Virus record (IMG/VR): IMGVR_UViG_3300026187_000002
Location: 1-39,538 of that record
DNA: 39,538 nucleotides
Direction: 5' to 3' (one strand)
DNA from: a virus
Lineage: Duplodnaviria > Caudoviricetes
The position numbers and the translations under genes were made by a program. The notes below the pieces were generated by a model. The model saw nothing but the letters and a program-made list of their open reading frames with translations, was not told where the DNA came from and ran no database searches. The number at the start of each line of letters is the position of its first letter. Within the stretch, counting starts at the first letter, position 1. This document shows positions 1 through 39,538 of the stretch, in pieces.

Positions 1-103
1 GTGATGATGATAGTGAATATCCATCTTCTCCAATGTCTATAACACTTTCAACGAGGTAAATTAAAATGGCAGAATTTAGTAATTATTTAGAAAACGCATT
101 TAT
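1..103. repeat. Direct terminal repeat, left copy (circular assembly overlap)
   Basis: Bases 1-103 are identical to 39436-39538, and the junction falls in coding sequence between the adaptor gene and the gene at 66. Confidence 0.95.
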
Positions 104-18834: not shown

Positions 18835-19147
18835 GCAGTGGGTCTTCTATCCATTCATCAGGCATATTTCTTGGGGAAATTAATTTTGCCAATTCTTCAG
18901 CATAAATTTCTTCTTCTTTATCTAAATACCATCTTTGTTTTCGACATTCCTCGATCCTATTTTTTAACTTATCAACTTCGCTAAGATCAGAAGATTGTTT
19001 GTGTCCACGTCTATCTAAATACTTTCTATTGTTACCCTTGCAGTAACCTATGACTTCTTCTTGAGTAGACTTGGCTTTAATTACATCGAATGTTTCTATG
19101 CCACCTATTTTATAATGGTTTGGATTAATTGGATCACTCATTTTCAA
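18821..19147 (-). CDS. DUF3310-like protein
   Basis: DPINPNHYKIGGIETFDVI...GYCKGN..KYL.R motif. Confidence 0.8.
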   Translation of the reverse strand: MKMSDPINPNHYKIGGIETFDVIKAKSTQEEVIGYCKGNNRKYLDRRGHKQSSDLSEVDKLKNRIEECRKQRWYLDKEEEIYAEELAKLISPRNMPDEWIEDPLHDED

Positions 19148-19475
19148 CGCTCCTTACAGATGTTAAATGATTACCACTTCCTAGATAATAACTATGCAAC
19201 TTTTGAAACATATTGTCAATAAAATCCCGGTTGCCCATTTGATCTCTCAACTCATCAATATCGACATCTAGTAACCATACGGCTAATTTTAAAATATCTG
19301 AATCTGCCATCAACCAACGATATGCTTGACTTCTAAGTTGTGCTTTTTGATCAGCCTTATTTTGTTTCTTAGAATAATCGTGTAAAGCTCTTACAAAGAT
19401 AGCTGCGATTAGCCTCCCTTCAGGTGACGCTGCTAATTGGTTGCGTAATTGGGTTTCCCCTCCCTTAACAATCAT
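19134..19475 (-). CDS. Hypothetical phage protein
   Basis: PEGRLIAAIFVRALHD...AYRWL; AAGGA upstream. Confidence 0.65.
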   Translation of the reverse strand: MIVKGGETQLRNQLAASPEGRLIAAIFVRALHDYSKKQNKADQKAQLRSQAYRWLMADSDILKLAVWLLDVDIDELRDQMGNRDFIDNMFQKLHSYYLGSGNHLTSVRSVENE

Positions 19476-19530: not shown

Positions 19531-19556
19531 TATAATGATGTTGTAGGCAACTACAA
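19531..19556 (+). promoter_or_regulatory. pqqA -10 box and 5' leader hairpin
   Basis: TATAAT at 19531-19536; TTGTAG-GCAA-CTACAA hairpin (GNRA loop) at 19541-19556; no consensus -35 seen. Confidence 0.55.
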
Positions 19557-19578
19557 ATCTAAAGAAGGGAGAAATATT

Positions 19579-19650
19579 ATGTGGACAAAACCATCAGCAA
19601 CTGAAATGCGTTTCGGCTTTGAAGTTACAATGTATGTATGTAACAAGTAA
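19579..19650 (+). CDS. pqqA: Pyrroloquinoline quinone precursor peptide PqqA (23 aa; not in ORF track)
   Basis: MWTKPSATEMRFGFEVTMYVCNK: W-x-K-P leader, R-x-G-F-E-V-T-M-Y core with the Glu-x3-Tyr pair; RBS GGGAGA 6 nt upstream; terminator immediately downstream. Confidence 0.95.
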   Translation: MWTKPSATEMRFGFEVTMYVCNK

Positions 19651-19651
19651 T

Positions 19652-19680
19652 AAAAAAGGGAGCTAAATGCTCCCCTTTTT
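19652..19680. terminator. Bidirectional intrinsic terminator
   Basis: AAAAAAGGGAGC-TAAAT-GCTCCCCTTTTT between convergent pqqA and the SSB-like gene. Confidence 0.85.
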
Positions 19681-19693
19681 ATAAAGACATAAA

Positions 19694-19996
19694 CTAGAAA
19701 GGAAGGTCATCTATGTCTTTACCATCATCTTGCGCCACTGGTCTACTGCGTGATGATGATTCGTCACGAGGAAAAAATACTTCAGAGTTGCCCAGGATTG
19801 TAGTCTGAACACCACCATCTCTTTCCTCTTTTGTTGTTGATTGACTGATAAAGCCATTATTACCGTATTGGTCTTTAGTGTCTGTATCTACCCATGTGGT
19901 TAGATTCATCCATTTATTACCATTTTTATCAGTAGTAACTCTGTCTTTCTCGATCTTGCTTAAATTAATTCCGATGTTAATTCCGTATCTAGGCAT
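19694..19996 (-). CDS. Single-stranded DNA-binding-like protein
   Basis: Acidic C-terminal tail ending DIDDLPF; located in the recombination operon. Confidence 0.65.
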   Translation of the reverse strand: MPRYGINIGINLSKIEKDRVTTDKNGNKWMNLTTWVDTDTKDQYGNNGFISQSTTKEERDGGVQTTILGNSEVFFPRDESSSRSRPVAQDDGKDIDDLPF

Positions 19997-20173: not shown

Positions 20174-20779
20174 CTACTCCTTTTTATTTATTGCTTCTTG
20201 CATATCTTCAACTTCATTAAGGAACTCTATGACTTCATCCTCTAGTTCTTTAATAATCTTATCATCTTTTTCTATCCTTTGCACATATAATCTTAAATGC
20301 TCAGGAAAGAAGGGCGAGTATGACACGAAGTCACACCAAGAACGATTCGTGCAGGCCATCTGAAAATACATCTGTTTTAACCATTTAGACGGAATCTTCT
20401 TAGTTAGTAAAATCTCAGTGTGTGTATGAGATTGGGGACACTTGATCTCGATTAGTCCGTCATCACCGACCAATCCGTCTGGCGAAGCACCTGCCATCTT
20501 AATTGTAGGATGATCTATAAATCCCACATCTTCCACACTATGATTTTCTAATATATATGCGGCCTTAGCTTCATCTTCTGTATCTATTCCATGTTGCATA
20601 GCTGCATTTATATATGTATCTGTTTTTTGGTTAGTCAAACGCTCAGTAAGAAGTTGAACTTTATAAGCCTTCCTGGTTGCAGACTCACCTGATCGACCCT
20701 TGGAGGTCACTGCATCCATCTTACTAGCAGTAACCTTCCCTAATCGAGCCTCAAACCATTCATCAGTTCTTTGCTCCAT
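20174..20779 (-). CDS. YqaJ/lambda-type recombination exonuclease
   Basis: EQRTDEWFEARLGKVTAS, GASPDGL, IEIKCP and QMYFQM motifs. Confidence 0.9.
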   Translation of the reverse strand: MEQRTDEWFEARLGKVTASKMDAVTSKGRSGESATRKAYKVQLLTERLTNQKTDTYINAAMQHGIDTEDEAKAAYILENHSVEDVGFIDHPTIKMAGASPDGLVGDDGLIEIKCPQSHTHTEILLTKKIPSKWLKQMYFQMACTNRSWCDFVSYSPFFPEHLRLYVQRIEKDDKIIKELEDEVIEFLNEVEDMQEAINKKE

Positions 20780-21080
20780 CTCTTGCCCTTTCTAATCTGT
20801 CTAAAAAATGTGGTTGATATTGCGAGAACCACCAATTTGCTGTTTCACCGTCTTTATATAACTTCCATTTACAAATTTCATCTATATGAACAACTGCACT
20901 ATGGGTATCCTCTCCCATGTTAAATGAAAAATATTGAACAATATAATATAGATCATTTATTTTACCTTCAATACAACCTTGCATTGATATTTCATCTTGC
21001 TGAGTTTTTTCCATAAACTTGTATGTATGAAAGTAGTGTCCTACTAAATCATTCCTTATTTCAAATTCTTTATTTTCCAT
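20763..21080 (-). CDS. Hypothetical protein
   Basis: 105 aa overlapping both neighbours in the operon. Confidence 0.6.
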   Translation of the reverse strand: MENKEFEIRNDLVGHYFHTYKFMEKTQQDEISMQGCIEGKINDLYYIVQYFSFNMGEDTHSAVVHIDEICKWKLYKDGETANWWFSQYQPHFLDRLERARDGAKN

Positions 21081-21591
21081 TTTCCTCTTCCCTTTTAATT
21101 ATTGCATTAACTATAGGCAATCCTTCTTTTCTAAGTCTATTATCCTTCCAACTATTAAATAAAGTTTTAACAGCGTTTACACCACCATCTTCAAAAGCAT
21201 TATTCAATTGATCTTCTACGGCAATGTTTAATGTATCTTCACCTTTGTAGATATATAAACCGATACCAAACACGGCTATACATTTTGCTAGACATCTCAT
21301 CATTGCAGTGTTGATATCCATTGCAGTTGGATTCTTAATTGCTTTGTTATTTTGGATAACAGGTAATTGCATACCCATTGTTTTACCAAAAGCATTTACC
21401 TTACAAAACACCATATATGTGTCATTGTAGATTTGTGGCTCATCAAACTCCCATGTTGCTTTTGGGTCTCTTCTTAGTAATTCTTCTACTGCAACTGTCC
21501 AGGTGAGGTAGTTAAAACGACCTTTTTTCTCGATATGTTTATCTACATTGACCTGTGATAGTGCAACAAAATCATAGATTTCTGCTGACAT
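21070..21591 (-). CDS. Single-strand annealing protein (Sak/DUF1071-like)
   Basis: KKGRFNYLTW..A and INTAMMRCLAKCIAVFGIGLYIYKGED motifs; paired with the exonuclease. Confidence 0.8.
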   Translation of the reverse strand: MSAEIYDFVALSQVNVDKHIEKKGRFNYLTWTVAVEELLRRDPKATWEFDEPQIYNDTYMVFCKVNAFGKTMGMQLPVIQNNKAIKNPTAMDINTAMMRCLAKCIAVFGIGLYIYKGEDTLNIAVEDQLNNAFEDGGVNAVKTLFNSWKDNRLRKEGLPIVNAIIKREEENGK

Positions 21592-21621
21592 AATGTTCTC
21601 CTTTTTAGTTATGTATAGATA

Positions 21622-21650
21622 AGTCTATATTAGATTATAATAATAGTCAA
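21622..21650 (-). promoter_or_regulatory. Leftward sigma70-type promoter
   Basis: Minus strand TTGACT-N17-TAGACT upstream of the SSAP gene. Confidence 0.6.
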
Positions 21651-21657
21651 TTTTTAT

Positions 21658-21702
21658 TTGACATTAAACATATTTTAATATTAGAATGAACTTATGTTTA
21701 AT
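21658..21702 (+). promoter_or_regulatory. Rightward sigma70-type promoter with overlapping inverted repeat
   Basis: TTGACA-N18-TAGAAT (21658-21687); perfect 10-bp IR ATTAAACATA (21663-21672) / TATGTTTAAT (21693-21702). Confidence 0.6.
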
Positions 21703-21715
21703 TATGGAGATAAAA

Positions 21716-21853
21716 ATGGATAGAGATAGCTGGTTACAAGATTACGATGGTTATTTAGATCAACAGTATCAAAAGCAAGATGATGAAGAGCGTGAGCAAC
21801 ATGAAGCAGATTATGCAGTTGATGAATATTTTTTAAATAAAGGAAAGAAATGA
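21716..21853 (+). CDS. Small acidic protein (45 aa; not in ORF track)
   Basis: GGAGA RBS; MDRDSWLQDYDGYLDQQYQKQDDEEREQHEADYAVDEYFLNKGKK; ATGA overlap with the next gene. Confidence 0.7.
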   Translation: MDRDSWLQDYDGYLDQQYQKQDDEEREQHEADYAVDEYFLNKGKK

Positions 21854-22041
21854 TAATTATAGATCCAAAAATAACTTTTACTGATGCACTTAATTATTTT
21901 AATGGCGATAAATTACTATTAAGAAAAGAACTAGGTGATGTCTCTAGGCAAGTAGTTTATAACTGGAAGAAGAAAGACCGTCTTCCATCAGATAAGGTGC
22001 TTATGTTACAACAATATGTAATCAAAAATGATATTTCTTGA
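21850..22041 (+). CDS. Cro-like HTH regulator
   Basis: DALNYFNG...LRKELGDVSRQVVYNW...LP pattern; position before the replication genes. Confidence 0.7.
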   Translation: MIIIDPKITFTDALNYFNGDKLLLRKELGDVSRQVVYNWKKKDRLPSDKVLMLQQYVIKNDIS

Positions 22042-24227: not shown

Positions 24228-24498
24228 AAATAAAAAACTACTTGTTAAACTAAGAGATCTACCTTGTATGTGGTGTGGTGCTATGGATGGAACAGTTTGT
24301 GCTGCACATCGTAACCAAGGAAAAGGAATGGGATTAAAAAACAGTGACGCATTAGTCGCTTCATTATGTTTTACCTGCCATTCAGAATTAGACAATGGTG
24401 CAAAACTAACAAAAGAAGAACGTAGAGAACTATGGAATGAGGCTTATGTTAGAACAATGCAACATCTAATTGAAAATGAAATGTTGGTTCTTAAATGA
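24217..24498 (+). CDS. Zn-binding HNH-like nuclease (YbcO/DUF968-like)
   Basis: PCMWCG...AAHRNQGKGMGLK.SD...LCFTCH motif. Confidence 0.7.
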   Translation: MVYRNKKLLVKLRDLPCMWCGAMDGTVCAAHRNQGKGMGLKNSDALVASLCFTCHSELDNGAKLTKEERRELWNEAYVRTMQHLIENEMLVLK

Positions 24499-25631
24499 GA
24501 TATTTATCAGTTTGTAGTGGTATCGAGGCGGCAACAGTAGCTTGGCATCATATGGGTTGGAAGCCTGTTGCTTTTTCAGAAATAGAAAAGTTTCCTAGTG
24601 AGGTTTTACAACATCATTACCCAAATGTAGCCAACTTAGGTGATATGAATAAATTTAAAGAATGGAGTGTAGATGGAACAGTTGACCTTATTGTCGGAGG
24701 AACACCATGCCAATCCTTCTCAGTTGCAGGCCTCAGAAAAGGACTTGAAGATCCTAGAGGAAATCTCGCACTTACCTTTTGTGCATTACTTAATAAGTTT
24801 AGACCCAAGTGGTTCGTTTGGGAAAACGTGCCAGGTGTCCTCAGTTCCAATAAAGGACGAGACTTTTCTTCCTTCATCTCAGCGGTGGCTCAACTCGGGT
24901 ATGGGTTCAGCTACAGGGTGCTTGACGCTCAAAACTTCGGAGTCGCACAGCGAAGAAGAAGAGTGTTTGTTGTCGGACATCTTGGAGACTGGAAACCTAC
25001 TGCCGAGGTATTATTTGAGTCCAGTAGCCTGCAATGGGATACTAAGAAGAGCAAAGAAAAGAGGGAAAAAACTTCCACCGACCCTATACCAAGCGTTGCT
25101 AACTGTCTCCAAACAACTTGCAACAACTTCTCAAGATCAGACGGATTCAACATGATCCCATTGTTACATCAAGATTATGTAGATGCACTTTGCGCTAGAG
25201 ATTACAAAGGATTAAATTCTGATAGTCTTCACAGAAAAGCTATTGTAGAAACATTAGCATATTCAGCAGACAAAGCACCAACCTTAACTTCTAGTGCTGC
25301 AGGTATAAGTCGAGTGGGTAATGATACTACGGCTGATAGCCAATACATTGCTTTTCATGCAACACAAGATCCTATTAGTGGTGATAAGTCACCGTGCATA
25401 GGTGCAATAGGTAAGATTGGAGTGATGGATAAATCAGATGCTATGAGGGTAAGAAGATTGACCCCTATAGAGTGTGAAAGATTACAAGGATTTCCTGACG
25501 GATACACAGACATCAAAGATAAATGTCCTGATGGTCCAAGATATAAAGCACTAGGAAACAGTATGGCAGTTCCTGTTATGAGATGGATAGGTGAACGAAT
25601 CAATAAGATTGAGCCTAAATATCAAGATTGA
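24495..25631 (+). CDS. DNA cytosine-5 methyltransferase
   Basis: Motif I (SVCSGI), IV (GGTPCQSFS), VI (ENVPG), VIII (QRRRRVF), IX (RRLTPIECERLQGFPD), X (LGNSM). Confidence 0.92.
   Translation: MRYLSVCSGIEAATVAWHHMGWKPVAFSEIEKFPSEVLQHHYPNVANLGDMNKFKEWSVDGTVDLIVGGTPCQSFSVAGLRKGLEDPRGNLALTFCALLNKFRPKWFVWENVPGVLSSNKGRDFSSFISAVAQLGYGFSYRVLDAQNFGVAQRRRRVFVVGHLGDWKPTAEVLFESSSLQWDTKKSKEKREKTSTDPIPSVANCLQTTCNNFSRSDGFNMIPLLHQDYVDALCARDYKGLNSDSLHRKAIVETLAYSADKAPTLTSSAAGISRVGNDTTADSQYIAFHATQDPISGDKSPCIGAIGKIGVMDKSDAMRVRRLTPIECERLQGFPDGYTDIKDKCPDGPRYKALGNSMAVPVMRWIGERINKIEPKYQD
24673..25155 (+). CDS. Nested alternative-frame protein within the methyltransferase (beta-polypeptide-like)
   Basis: 160 codons open in the +1 frame; GGAG 5 nt before ATG; LSDILE...YYLSP.AC.GILRRA..RGK.LP motif. 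Confidence 0.6.
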   Translation: MEQLTLLSEEHHANPSQLQASEKDLKILEEISHLPFVHYLISLDPSGSFGKTCQVSSVPIKDETFLPSSQRWLNSGMGSATGCLTLKTSESHSEEEECLLSDILETGNLLPRYYLSPVACNGILRRAKKRGKKLPPTLYQALLTVSKQLATTSQDQTDST

Positions 25632-30445: not shown

Positions 30446-30568
30446 ATGCCAAATGTAGGCGGTAAGAAGTTTGCTTATACAAAAGCAGGTAAGAAGAAAG
30501 CTGCAGAATATAAAAAGAAACAAGACAAGAAAAAGAGTCGCAAGGGATACAAGAAGAAAGGTAAATAA
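30446..30568 (+). CDS. Lys-rich microprotein (40 aa; not in ORF track)
   Basis: AGGAG RBS; MPNVGGKKFAYTKAGKKKAAEYKKKQDKKKSRKGYKKKGK. Confidence 0.75.
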   Translation: MPNVGGKKFAYTKAGKKKAAEYKKKQDKKKSRKGYKKKGK

Positions 30569-30944: not shown

Positions 30945-31121
30945 ATGGCAAAGAGAGGCTTGTATGAAAACATCCATAGAAAAAGGAAACGTATTAAGGC
31001 TGGATCTGGAGAATCAATGCGCAAACCTGGAACTAAAGGCGCACCAACATCAAAAGCCTTCAAGCAAGCCGCTAAAACAGCCAAAAAGAAAACTAAGCGA
31101 ACTTCTAAAAAACGTAAGTGA
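30945..31121 (+). CDS. Lys/Arg-rich microprotein (58 aa; not in ORF track)
   Basis: MAKRGLYENIHRKRKRIKAGSGESMRKPGTKGAPTSKAFKQAAKTAKKKTKRTSKKRK. Confidence 0.75.
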   Translation: MAKRGLYENIHRKRKRIKAGSGESMRKPGTKGAPTSKAFKQAAKTAKKKTKRTSKKRK

Positions 31122-38874: not shown

Positions 38875-39494
38875 TGGCATTTACTAGCTATACAACATTA
38901 AAGACAAAGATAGGTGAGTATTTGGCTCGAACAGATTTAGATACACAAATACCTGACTTTATTCGTCTTGCAGAAGAAAGATTGCGTAGAGATTTACGCA
39001 TTAGACAAATGTTAAAAGTAGCTACAGCAACAGCAACTGCTGATGATTCTACAGTATCTCTACCATCTGACTTTCTTGCAATGAAAGATTTACACATAGA
39101 TGCAACTCCAGTCAGAGTATTGAAATTTCAAAACACATCTAACTTTTTTAGAAACGCTAGAGTTACAGATAAAGGCGTTCCTACTATGTATACATTATTA
39201 GGCAGTGAGTTTCAATTTGCTCCAGTTCCTGATACTGCATACACATTAAGAATGGTGTATTACCATAAACCTGATTTTTTATCAGACAGTAACGCATCTA
39301 ACTTATTTTTAGCTAACTGCCCAGATTTATTGTTATACGGTGCATTAGCAGAAGCAGAACCTTATCTTATGAATGATGAACGAATTCAAACTTGGGCATC
39401 TTTGTATGATCGAGGTCTAGCATCATTAAGAGCAAGTGATGATGATAGTGAATATCCATCTTCTCCAATGTCTATAACACTTTCAACGAGGTAA
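38874..39494 (+). CDS. Head-tail adaptor protein
   Basis: YTTLKT.I..YLARTDL...IPDFIRLAE...LPSDFL...PDLLLYGALAEAEPYL. Confidence 0.75.
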   Translation: MAFTSYTTLKTKIGEYLARTDLDTQIPDFIRLAEERLRRDLRIRQMLKVATATATADDSTVSLPSDFLAMKDLHIDATPVRVLKFQNTSNFFRNARVTDKGVPTMYTLLGSEFQFAPVPDTAYTLRMVYYHKPDFLSDSNASNLFLANCPDLLLYGALAEAEPYLMNDERIQTWASLYDRGLASLRASDDDSEYPSSPMSITLSTR

Positions 39495-39538
39495 ATTAAA
39501 ATGGCAGAATTTAGTAATTATTTAGAAAACGCATTTAT
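39436..39538. repeat. Direct terminal repeat, right copy
   Basis: Identical to 1-103. Confidence 0.95.

What the first reader, a model, noticed from the sequence alone, without database searches (positions are those of the whole stretch)
19579..19650. Phage-encoded PqqA: cofactor precursor peptide as an auxiliary metabolic gene
Seen: an unannotated 23-codon ORF, MWTKPSATEMRFGFEVTMYVCNK, with a good RBS. Known: PqqA is the ribosomal precursor of pyrroloquinoline quinone; its Glu-x3-Tyr pair (EVTMY) is cross-linked by PqqE/PqqD, one peptide is consumed per PQQ, and PQQ is the cofactor of methanol (MxaF/XoxF) and other periplasmic dehydrogenases. No pqqB-E are in the genome. Inference: the phage supplies only the stoichiometric substrate to sustain host methanol oxidation during infection, or competes for the host maturases. 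The ATEMRFGFEVTMYV form is the one I associate with Methylophilaceae, which with the low GC suggests an OM43/LD28-type host. Phage pqqA may already have been noted in metagenomes, so novelty needs a literature check.
Basis: partly seen in the sequence, partly recalled or inferred. Interest (0 to 1): 0.9.

Follow-up and report, generated by a model that had tools for sequence, protein, structure and literature searches.

The report
Phage-borne PQQ precursor gene pqqA
This phage carries an intact 23-codon copy of pqqA, the small peptide that bacteria use up to make the cofactor PQQ, and likely feeds it to the enzymes of a likely methanol-eating host; viral pqqA was already reported in 2020, but the same gene sits unannotated in all six named cultured phages of this host family, where its role could be tested.

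Summary
Confirmed. Window 19579-19650 (+) encodes a genuine PqqA (TIGR02107 44.7 bits, cut-off 20) in a complete 39.5-kb podovirus-type genome without pqqB-E. It is a stand-alone unit (TATAAT box, leader hairpin, GGGAG, two-way terminator) inserted antisense behind the Sak-YqaJ recombination genes, a position held in 34 of 80 YqaJ relatives. Its anatomy matches the solitary pqqA of OM43 chromosomes, and the closest cultured phage by portal protein is OM43 phage Venkman (62%). Viral copies are under strong purifying selection: 120 of 120 keep the reactive Glu and Tyr, which favours real substrate over decoy. Viral pqqA is in print (Lake Baikal 2020; a 2026 reservoir study), and this scan has noted it in at least 60 other genomes. 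Not found in print: it lies unannotated in all six named cultured Methylophilaceae phages (9 records, at least three unrelated lineages), in no cultured phage of another host among 50,697 records, and in roughly 3,200 IMG/VR stretches. Likely role: topping up host PQQ for methanol dehydrogenase during infection (about 0.68); expression and benefit are untested. New member of a known kind.

The parts
19531..19536 (+). Perfect -10-type box (TATAAT), predicted promoter of the pqqA unit; no good -35 at 16-18 nt, so the consensus scan did not call it
   Evidence: Sequence; not among the 5 promoter calls; a perfect box lies 26-75 nt upstream in 65 of 184 distinct phage pqqA leaders against a shuffle mean of 14.8, maximum 25
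19541..19556 (+). 6-bp hairpin with a GCAA loop at the predicted 5' end of the transcript (possible mRNA stabiliser; inferred)
   Evidence: In both the minimum-energy and centroid structures; small leader hairpins also in OM43 solitary pqqA leaders
19567..19571 (+). Shine-Dalgarno site GGGAG, 7 nt before the ATG
   Evidence: Sequence; one of only two 20-59 aa ORFs with a strong RBS outside larger ORFs in the window
19579..19650 (+). pqqA, 23-residue PQQ precursor peptide; Glu15 codon 19621-19623, Tyr19 codon 19633-19635
   Evidence: TIGR02107 44.7 bits, PF08042 43.3 bits
19650..19682 (.). Two-way intrinsic terminator (A run, GC stem, T run), predicted to end both the pqqA transcript and the leftward recombination operon
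   Evidence: Called on both strands; shuffle mean 0.3; aligns with the terminator of OM43 solitary pqqA
19694..19996 (-). Context: probable single-strand DNA-binding protein (inferred from position and acidic tail), converging on pqqA
   Evidence: PHROG 24909 unknown function; the gene at this position in MW202481 is annotated putative SSB
20174..20779 (-). Context: YqaJ-like recombination exonuclease; anchor of the conserved pqqA position
   Evidence: PF09588; synteny
21070..21591 (-). Context: Sak single-strand annealing protein
   Evidence: PF06378
19134..19475 (-). Context: 113-aa protein of unknown function, diverging from pqqA
   Evidence: No Pfam, PHROG or NCBIfam hit; kept beside pqqA in the four closest YqaJ relatives L252-L255

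Best explanation
The phage carries an intact, stand-alone pqqA gene, likely captured from an OM43-type Methylophilaceae chromosome, and likely expresses it during infection so that the host's own PqqD/E/B/C enzymes would turn the peptide into PQQ and keep methanol dehydrogenase, the host's predicted main energy source, supplied. Shown: the gene, its family membership, its cassette anatomy, purifying selection on viral copies, its spread across unrelated phage lineages, and that OM43-type genomes hold pqqE, a PQQ alcohol dehydrogenase and several unlinked pqqA copies. From established knowledge: PqqA binds PqqD, PqqE cross-links its Glu and Tyr, and the peptide is consumed, whereas the enzymes turn over catalytically. 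Inferred: host identity, transcription from the TATAAT box by host RNA polymerase, that PqqA supply limits PQQ in infected cells, and that this raises phage yield.
For: Membership above curated cut-offs. 120 of 120 IMG/VR matches to an N-terminal pattern that does not contain Glu15 or Tyr19 keep both, a full frame and an RBS-like site; 110 distinct genes give 24 peptides; pN/pS is 0.015 for codons 13-19 and 0.071 for codons 13-23. Present in 9 records of six named cultured Methylophilaceae phages, the 7 GenBank copies tested all above cut-off, in different genomic settings; three different PqqA queries found no other cultured phage among 50,697 records. 151 of 151 genomes of the host family have pqqA, 147 with two or more matches, and 22 of 29 genomes of 1.4 Mb or less have exactly three (my count); PMC4109929 reports 3-12 pqqA copies against one pqqB-G set. 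In KB13 all three copies lie over 100 kb from pqqE, so a stand-alone pqqA acting in trans is the host's normal arrangement. Perfect TATAAT in 65 of 183 phage pqqA leaders against 15 of 250 control phage ORFs and 2 of 137 bacterial copies; terminator-like hairpins in 72 of 183 against 18 of 250.
Against: No expression or biochemical data exist here. In Acetobacter, overexpressing pqqAB raised PQQ only 29% while pqqABCDE raised it eightfold (PMC7936290 section 7), so the precursor need not be limiting. PQQ is a recycled cofactor, so new synthesis matters only if apo-enzyme is made or PQQ is lost during infection (own reasoning). The gene is not universal in this phage lineage: 10 of 42 low-GC YqaJ relatives with at least 1 kb of downstream DNA lack it there, and only 1 of 15 near-complete related records has it (hosts unknown, most are distant high-GC relatives). 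The window's -35 region is poor, and matches of 5 of 6 or better to the -10 box are hardly enriched (96 of 183 against 83 in shuffles). 29 of 119 viral peptides are not of the Methylophilaceae-like type, so methanol oxidation cannot be assumed for all. Related sequences are not independent counts.
Confidence: 0.68

Rival explanations
1. The peptide is converted to PQQ, but the benefit is not methanol oxidation: for example redox buffering during a long infection, or another PQQ enzyme.
For: 29 of 119 viral peptides are of other types, so some hosts may not be methylotrophs; two of the four small genomes searched hold a second, lower-scoring PQQ-dehydrogenase-like gene.
Against: Among cultured phages the gene is confined to Methylophilaceae hosts, although the collection holds many phages of other hosts (one search lists 105 Pseudomonas phage records for one query alone); the Baikal virus carries it together with methanol dehydrogenase (PMC7678222).
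Confidence: 0.15
2. The peptide is a decoy that occupies PqqD/PqqE and lowers host PQQ synthesis or spares S-adenosylmethionine.
For: PqqA binds PqqD tightly (Kd 0.39 uM in Methylorubrum; PMC10906245), so a flood of peptide could tie it up. No bacterial copy examined was identical to the window peptide.
Against: 120 of 120 copies keep Glu15 and Tyr19; the window peptide differs by one residue from host copies, and its Ser6 and Cys21 both occur in host copies. A decoy would be expected to lose the reactive pair.
Confidence: 0.08
3. It is a neutral passenger picked up from the host and not yet lost.
For: Hosts have several stand-alone copies that are easy to capture, and the gene sits beside a recombination module; some relatives lack it.
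Against: pN/pS 0.015-0.07 with synonymous sites heavily changed; same position and antisense orientation in 34 of 34 carriers among YqaJ relatives only 52-75% identical; separate settings in Venkman-type, Zobellviridae and T4-like phages; no broken copy among 120.
Confidence: 0.05
4. The gene serves as a homology anchor (attP-like) for integration into a host pqqA by the neighbouring Sak/YqaJ recombinase, as the phage has no integrase.
For: Position next to Sak-YqaJ; 66 of 72 nt identity to a host copy; no tyrosine integrase in the record.
Against: Selection acts on the peptide, not the DNA; only 1 of 361 host-family genomes holds a capsid homologue, a broken 47% match on a 2.8-kb contig; the gene also occurs in unrelated settings without these recombinases.
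Confidence: 0.02
5. Artefact: chance ORF, host contamination, or the real gene is the overlapping antisense ORF or the 41-codon in-frame extension from ATG 19525.
For: Gene callers annotated an antisense hypothetical ORF over this spot in Melnitz and MW202481; the window has a 31-codon antisense ORF and an upstream in-frame ATG.
Against: Curated cut-offs passed; 0 motif hits in 300 shuffles; changes fall on third codon positions of the + frame; the RBS sits before ATG 19579; present in cultured, sequenced phages.
Confidence: 0.01

Closest known systems
Viral PqqA of Lake Baikal population VP_266 (Coutinho et al. 2020, PMC7678222; passages read)
   Same: Virus-encoded PqqA in a predicted Methylophilaceae phage, proposed as an auxiliary metabolic gene that boosts methanol oxidation.
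   Different: VP_266 is T4-like and also carries methanol dehydrogenase; this is a 39.5-kb podovirus-type genome with pqqA as the only methylotrophy gene found. That paper says cultured phage P19250A encodes none of its AMGs, yet P19250A has an unannotated pqqA.
Stand-alone chromosomal pqqA copies of Methylophilaceae (PF08042 / TIGR02107), especially the solitary copy of OM43 strains
   Same: 22 of 23 residues and 66 of 72 nt identical to the closest copy; same leader hairpin, RBS and terminator layout; unlinked from pqqB-E.
   Different: Viral; perfect TATAAT far more frequent in phage leaders (65 of 183) than in bacterial ones (2 of 137).
Unannotated pqqA of cultured OM43/LD28 phages Venkman, MEP301, MEP401, MEP402, Melnitz and P19250A
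   Same: 73-96% identical peptides; Venkman has it at the same place, antisense behind Sak-YqaJ.
   Different: Cys21 here instead of Met/Leu; other lineages place it elsewhere (before a tRNA gene in Melnitz, ahead of a run of same-strand genes in MEP401/402).
Virus-encoded pqqA, pqqD, pqqE listed as phosphate-solubilisation AMGs in reservoir sediments (PMC13188868; passages read)
   Same: pqqA found on viral contigs.
   Different: Listed only, read as phosphorus cycling; no link to methylotroph phages in the passages seen.
Cyanophage psbA (recalled from own knowledge, no call)
   Same: A phage copy of the one consumable or fast-turnover part of the host's main energy module, acquired by several phage lineages.
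   Different: psbA encodes a reaction-centre protein with shown expression and benefit; pqqA encodes a peptide substrate, and neither expression nor benefit has been shown.

Membership tests
PqqA (TIGR02107 / PF08042) | Score above the curated cut-offs | tested here: met
   44.7 against 20; 43.3 against 21.1
PqqA (TIGR02107 / PF08042) | Short peptide with Glu-x3-Tyr near the C-terminus, the residues cross-linked by PqqE | tested here: met
   Glu15, Tyr19 in a 23-residue peptide; Glu16/Tyr20 in Methylorubrum numbering per PMC10906245
PqqA (TIGR02107 / PF08042) | Intact translatable gene under purifying selection | tested here: met
   RBS, ATG, double stop; pN/pS 0.015-0.071 across viral copies
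PqqA (TIGR02107 / PF08042) | Bound by PqqD, cross-linked by PqqE and converted to PQQ | not testable with these tools
   Needs biochemistry; no complex prediction was sent
Complete pqqABCDE biosynthetic cluster | pqqB, C, D, E beside pqqA | tested here: not met
   None in the window; none in 120 viral loci, 80 of them with long flanks, while the same queries found pqqB in 13 of 68 bacterial loci of 6 kb or more
Auxiliary metabolic gene | Host-derived metabolic gene inside a bona fide viral genome, flanked by viral genes | tested here: met
   Complete record with portal, capsid, terminase, Sak, YqaJ; host homologue 22 of 23 residues identical
Auxiliary metabolic gene | The host has the pathway the gene acts in | tested here: inconclusive
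   4 of 4 small OM43-type genomes have pqqE above cut-off, 3 of 4 a PQQ alcohol dehydrogenase above cut-off; but the host of this phage is inferred, not shown
Auxiliary metabolic gene | Expressed during infection and changes host metabolism to the phage's benefit | not testable with these tools
   Needs infection transcriptomes and mutants
Venkman-like phages of OM43 | Shared head module and recombination-region synteny with Venkman | tested here: met
   Portal 62% identical over 99% of its length, best cultured match; same Sak-YqaJ-(SSB)-pqqA order; no formal genus assignment was computed

The most novel reading that the evidence does not exclude
pqqA is the hallmark auxiliary gene of methylotroph phages, their counterpart of cyanophage psbA: captured separately by small podo/sipho-, Zobellviridae and T4-like phages, carried by every cultured Methylophilaceae phage, hidden below gene-calling thresholds, and needed because the precursor peptide limits PQQ, and hence methanol oxidation, in infected cells. 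It would then be both a host marker for thousands of uncultured phages and a direct viral control on aquatic methanol turnover.
Probability: 0.5. Interest if true: 0.72.

Novelty: new member of a known kind. Interest (0 to 1): 0.48.

Why it matters
The idea is in print, but only as a passing remark on one uncultured virus. The same gene lies unnoticed in all six named cultured phages of OM43 and LD28 methylotrophs, so an untested metagenomic claim becomes a bench experiment with existing phage-host pairs. If the phage peptide raises PQQ and methanol oxidation during infection, viruses would steer a main route of C1 carbon in coastal and fresh waters with a 72-base gene that annotation pipelines miss. 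The peptide type may also serve as a host marker for uncultured phages.

Tried and rejected
Rfam scan of the window: 0 matches at gathering thresholds, so the leader hairpin is no known RNA family. No tRNA or tmRNA genes. Sequencing-run search: no RNA holder listed among 24 runs, which says nothing about expression. Laying contigs of 4 runs gave summed depths of 121-1,901 over the two pqqA bins against mostly 1-25 in most other bins; this is the pile-up of many other pqqA-bearing contigs and is not a copy number, so I did not use it as evidence. Terminator likeness as a host clue: the best non-self scores were OM43-type copies (35 of 90), but similar stems follow many Methylophilaceae copies (27-33), so it is weak support only. 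Ser6 as a phage-only variant: rejected, a Ser/Thr-6 pattern matched 19 of 361 host-family genomes and 9 of the 10 loci read have a Ser6 copy. Plasmid search gave 47 records, all 74% identical or less, in other Proteobacteria. The two 'Acinetobacter phage MD-2021a' hits were set aside: the one inspected is a bacterial pqqABCDE operon; the second and an E=5 hit were not inspected. The attP idea was tested and not supported. No tree was built because 72 nt cannot resolve donors; separate acquisitions are inferred from unrelated gene contexts only. No structure or complex prediction was sent (23-residue peptide, textbook pair). The review PMC7736144 is not held.

Full report
Observation. It passes the curated cut-offs of both PqqA models (TIGR02107 44.7 bits against 20; PF08042 43.3 against 21.1) and matches no PHROG family. 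A degenerate core motif occurs once in the window and never in 300 shuffles. The window is a whole virus record (39,538 nt, direct terminal repeats, CheckV 100%) with SU10-type portal, capsid and adaptor, terminase, Sak, YqaJ, DnaB-like helicase, holin and M15 endolysin. No pqqB-E were seen among 65 proteins scanned; six-frame searches found no pqqE, no PQQ alcohol dehydrogenase and no tyrosine integrase.

Anatomy. pqqA runs against both neighbours, between a 113-aa unknown gene (19134-19475, -) and a probable SSB gene (19694-19996, -) at the end of the Sak-YqaJ operon. It has a perfect TATAAT at 19531-19536, a 6-bp hairpin with a GCAA loop at 19541-19556, and a terminator called on both strands at 19650-19682. 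The -35 region is poor and the consensus scan did not call this promoter, so the promoter is a prediction. Across phages it is more than chance: a perfect TATAAT lies in 65 of 184 distinct leaders against a shuffle mean of 14.8 and maximum of 25, and in 15 of 250 control phage ORFs and 2 of 137 bacterial pqqA copies; terminator-like hairpins follow 72 of 183 phage copies against 18 of 250 controls; looser -10 matches are hardly enriched (96 against 83). These leaders are partly related, so the counts are not independent events.

Host. The best cultured match of the portal is OM43 phage Venkman (62% over 99% of the length), which has pqqA at the same place and orientation. A motif for the Cys-bearing peptide type matched about 310 stretches of GTDB genomes; of the 80 titles shown, 63 name Methylophilaceae or Methylophilales, 15 are unspecific (KB13 among them) and 2 name other groups on contigs under 4 kb (41 further titles not seen). 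The closest bacterial gene found is 66 of 72 nt and 22 of 23 residues identical, in a 1.2-Mb genome at the site orthologous to the solitary pqqA of KB13; -10 box, leader hairpin, RBS and terminator line up with the phage unit. PMC13037479 lists KB13 among OM43 isolates (passages). Runs holding much of the region, apart from three possible source samples labelled soil, are labelled estuary or marine. An OM43-type host is therefore likely but not shown.

Host pathway. All 151 genomes sampled from that family have pqqA; 147 have two or more matches, and 22 of the 29 genomes of 1.4 Mb or less have exactly three (my count; matches are not strict copy numbers). PMC4109929 reports 3 to 12 pqqA copies against a single set of the other pqq genes (passages). 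In KB13 the copies lie at 35.3, 846.7 and 846.9 kb, pqqE at 736.7 kb and the PQQ alcohol dehydrogenase at 147.0 kb. So even streamlined genomes keep extra precursor genes, all acting in trans, and the phage unit mimics one of them.

Spread in viruses. tblastn against 50,697 GenBank phage records gave 13 hits: 9 records of Methylophilaceae phages (Venkman, MEP301, MEP401, MEP402, P19250A, four Melnitz), one uncultured Manatee Spring genome, two 'Acinetobacter phage' contigs (the one inspected is a bacterial pqq operon) and one E=5 match. I inspected 6 of the 9 and the Manatee record: none annotates pqqA; Melnitz and the Manatee record carry an antisense 'hypothetical protein' over it. All 7 copies pass the TIGR02107 cut-off. 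Two further queries of other peptide types returned the same 12 records; divergent alphaproteobacterial-type PqqA would be missed. A 2026 paper names Venkman, MEP301, Melnitz and MEP401-402 as the known OM43 isolates, so 5 of 5 of these, plus P19250A, carry it. In IMG/VR a core motif matches about 3,200 stored stretches (estimate from 3 of 64 parts; stretches, not species). Of 120 sampled, 119 parse as intact 23-25-residue genes (one with Ns dropped) and none has pqqB-E in the DNA fetched (80 with long flanks). 90 of 119 are of the Methylophilaceae-like type by my own pattern and 29 are not. Of 79 long loci, 23 share YqaJ or Sak with the window and 27 share nothing with the window or six reference loci; 22 of 26 of the latter that I scanned have PHROG hits, including T4-like replication genes and unrelated terminases.

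Conservation. Among the 80 best YqaJ relatives, found without any pqqA pattern, 34 have pqqA, all antisense and 300-746 nt downstream; 32 of 42 low-GC loci with at least 1 kb of downstream DNA have it, and 0 of 32 higher-GC loci (one carrier, L251, is identical to the window). It is not universal: in whole-record searches 8 of 43 relatives have it, 1 of 15 among those at least 90% complete; the two long records with the closest capsids (88% and 74%) have it, three near-complete ones at 67-70% do not. With a pattern covering only codons 1-12, 120 of 120 matches keep Glu15, Tyr19 and a full frame; 110 distinct genes encode 24 peptides; pN/pS is 0.015 over codons 13-19 and 0.071 over 13-23 (many of these contigs overlap the first scan). 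In the 16 distinct synteny-found genes it is 0.147 over codons 2-23.

Mechanism. PqqA binds PqqD in a 1:1:1 complex with PqqE, which cross-links Glu and Tyr before proteolysis, PqqB and PqqC finish PQQ (PMC10906245, passages). The peptide is thus consumed. In a Hyphomicrobium PQQ producer, high pqqA and pqqE expression went with PQQ synthesis (PMC9851590, passages). I infer that the phage supplies this consumable so that holo-methanol dehydrogenase is maintained while host transcription declines (0.68). Against it: in Acetobacter, pqqAB overexpression raised PQQ only 29% against eightfold for pqqABCDE (PMC7936290 section 7), PQQ is recycled, and nothing here shows expression. A decoy is unlikely because the reactive pair is never lost; a neutral passenger because of the selection signal; an attP role because only 1 of 361 host-family genomes holds even a broken capsid homologue.

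What is in print. PMC7678222 reports PqqA and methanol dehydrogenase in T4-like Baikal population VP_266 and says P19250A encodes none of its AMGs (passages), which the hit in KX815270 contradicts for pqqA. PMC13188868 lists viral pqqA, D and E as phosphorus-cycling AMGs (passages). PMC11118758 mentions a PqqA family co-expressed with host defence systems (one passage). Term searches of the main texts on Melnitz (PMC9004378), MEP401/402 (PMC10580990), MEP301 (PMC8024684) and Venkman (PMC8163748) found 'pqq' only once, as a medium supplement; their supplements were not searched and the original P19250A paper was not seen. Ten library searches showed no paper that describes pqqA in cultured methylotroph phages or its prevalence; subscription journals are mostly not held. 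PMC12801897 and PMC9564219 were checked and are not relevant. This scan has 63 earlier notes on the same gene type in at least 60 other genomes; they are unchecked AI notes and are not counted as evidence.

Verdict. A real gene, correctly named, with a well-supported host family and a plausible but untested function. It is a new member of a known kind. Its value lies in how common and overlooked it is and in the cultured phage-host pairs that make the question testable. Interest 0.48.

Noticed in passing
GenBank KX815270.1 28085-28153 (L005:4001-4072): Phage P19250A has an unannotated pqqA, although PMC7678222 states it encodes none of the AMGs reported there.
   Followed up: yes
L007:3961-4056 (Melnitz MZ577097.1) and L002:2067-2195 (MW202481.1): Gene callers annotated an antisense 'hypothetical protein' over the real pqqA; in Melnitz pqqA directly precedes a tRNA-Leu gene.
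   Followed up: partly
L012, L021, L023, L029, L036, L040, L047, L055, L064; L011, L048, L058, L066, L074, L088 and others: 29 of 119 sampled viral PqqA peptides are of other types than the Methylophilaceae-like one, which points to phages of other PQQ-making hosts; hosts not identified.
   Followed up: partly
CAKLQF020000010.1 (L008): A record filed as 'Acinetobacter phage MD-2021a' is a bacterial contig with a full pqqABCDE operon.
   Followed up: yes
L331-L333 (G001:C1:846200-847500 and orthologues): OM43-type genomes carry two pqqA copies in tandem about 200 nt apart, plus a solitary third copy, all far from pqqE in KB13.
   Followed up: partly
window 30446-30568 and 30945-31121 (+): Two small, very lysine/arginine-rich ORFs (40 and 58 aa) between the small and large terminase genes; no NCBIfam hit. 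The 40-aa one has a strong RBS.
   Followed up: no
window 21591-21686: Divergent intergenic region with overlapping TATAAT boxes on both strands (21636 +, 21639 -) ahead of a weak Cro/CI-like helix-turn-helix gene (21850-22041), although no integrase was found.
   Followed up: no
window 24495-25631 (+): C5-cytosine DNA methyltransferase without a neighbouring restriction gene among the scanned ORFs.
   Followed up: no
window 1-103 and 39436-39538: Exact 103-nt terminal direct repeat that cuts through coding sequence; probably the assembly overlap of a circular contig.
   Followed up: no
L296 (IMG/VR record G397, 35,080 nt, rated 100% complete): Low-GC relative sharing Sak, YqaJ and SSB with the window but lacking pqqA anywhere in the record; a natural control if its host can be found.
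   Followed up: partly
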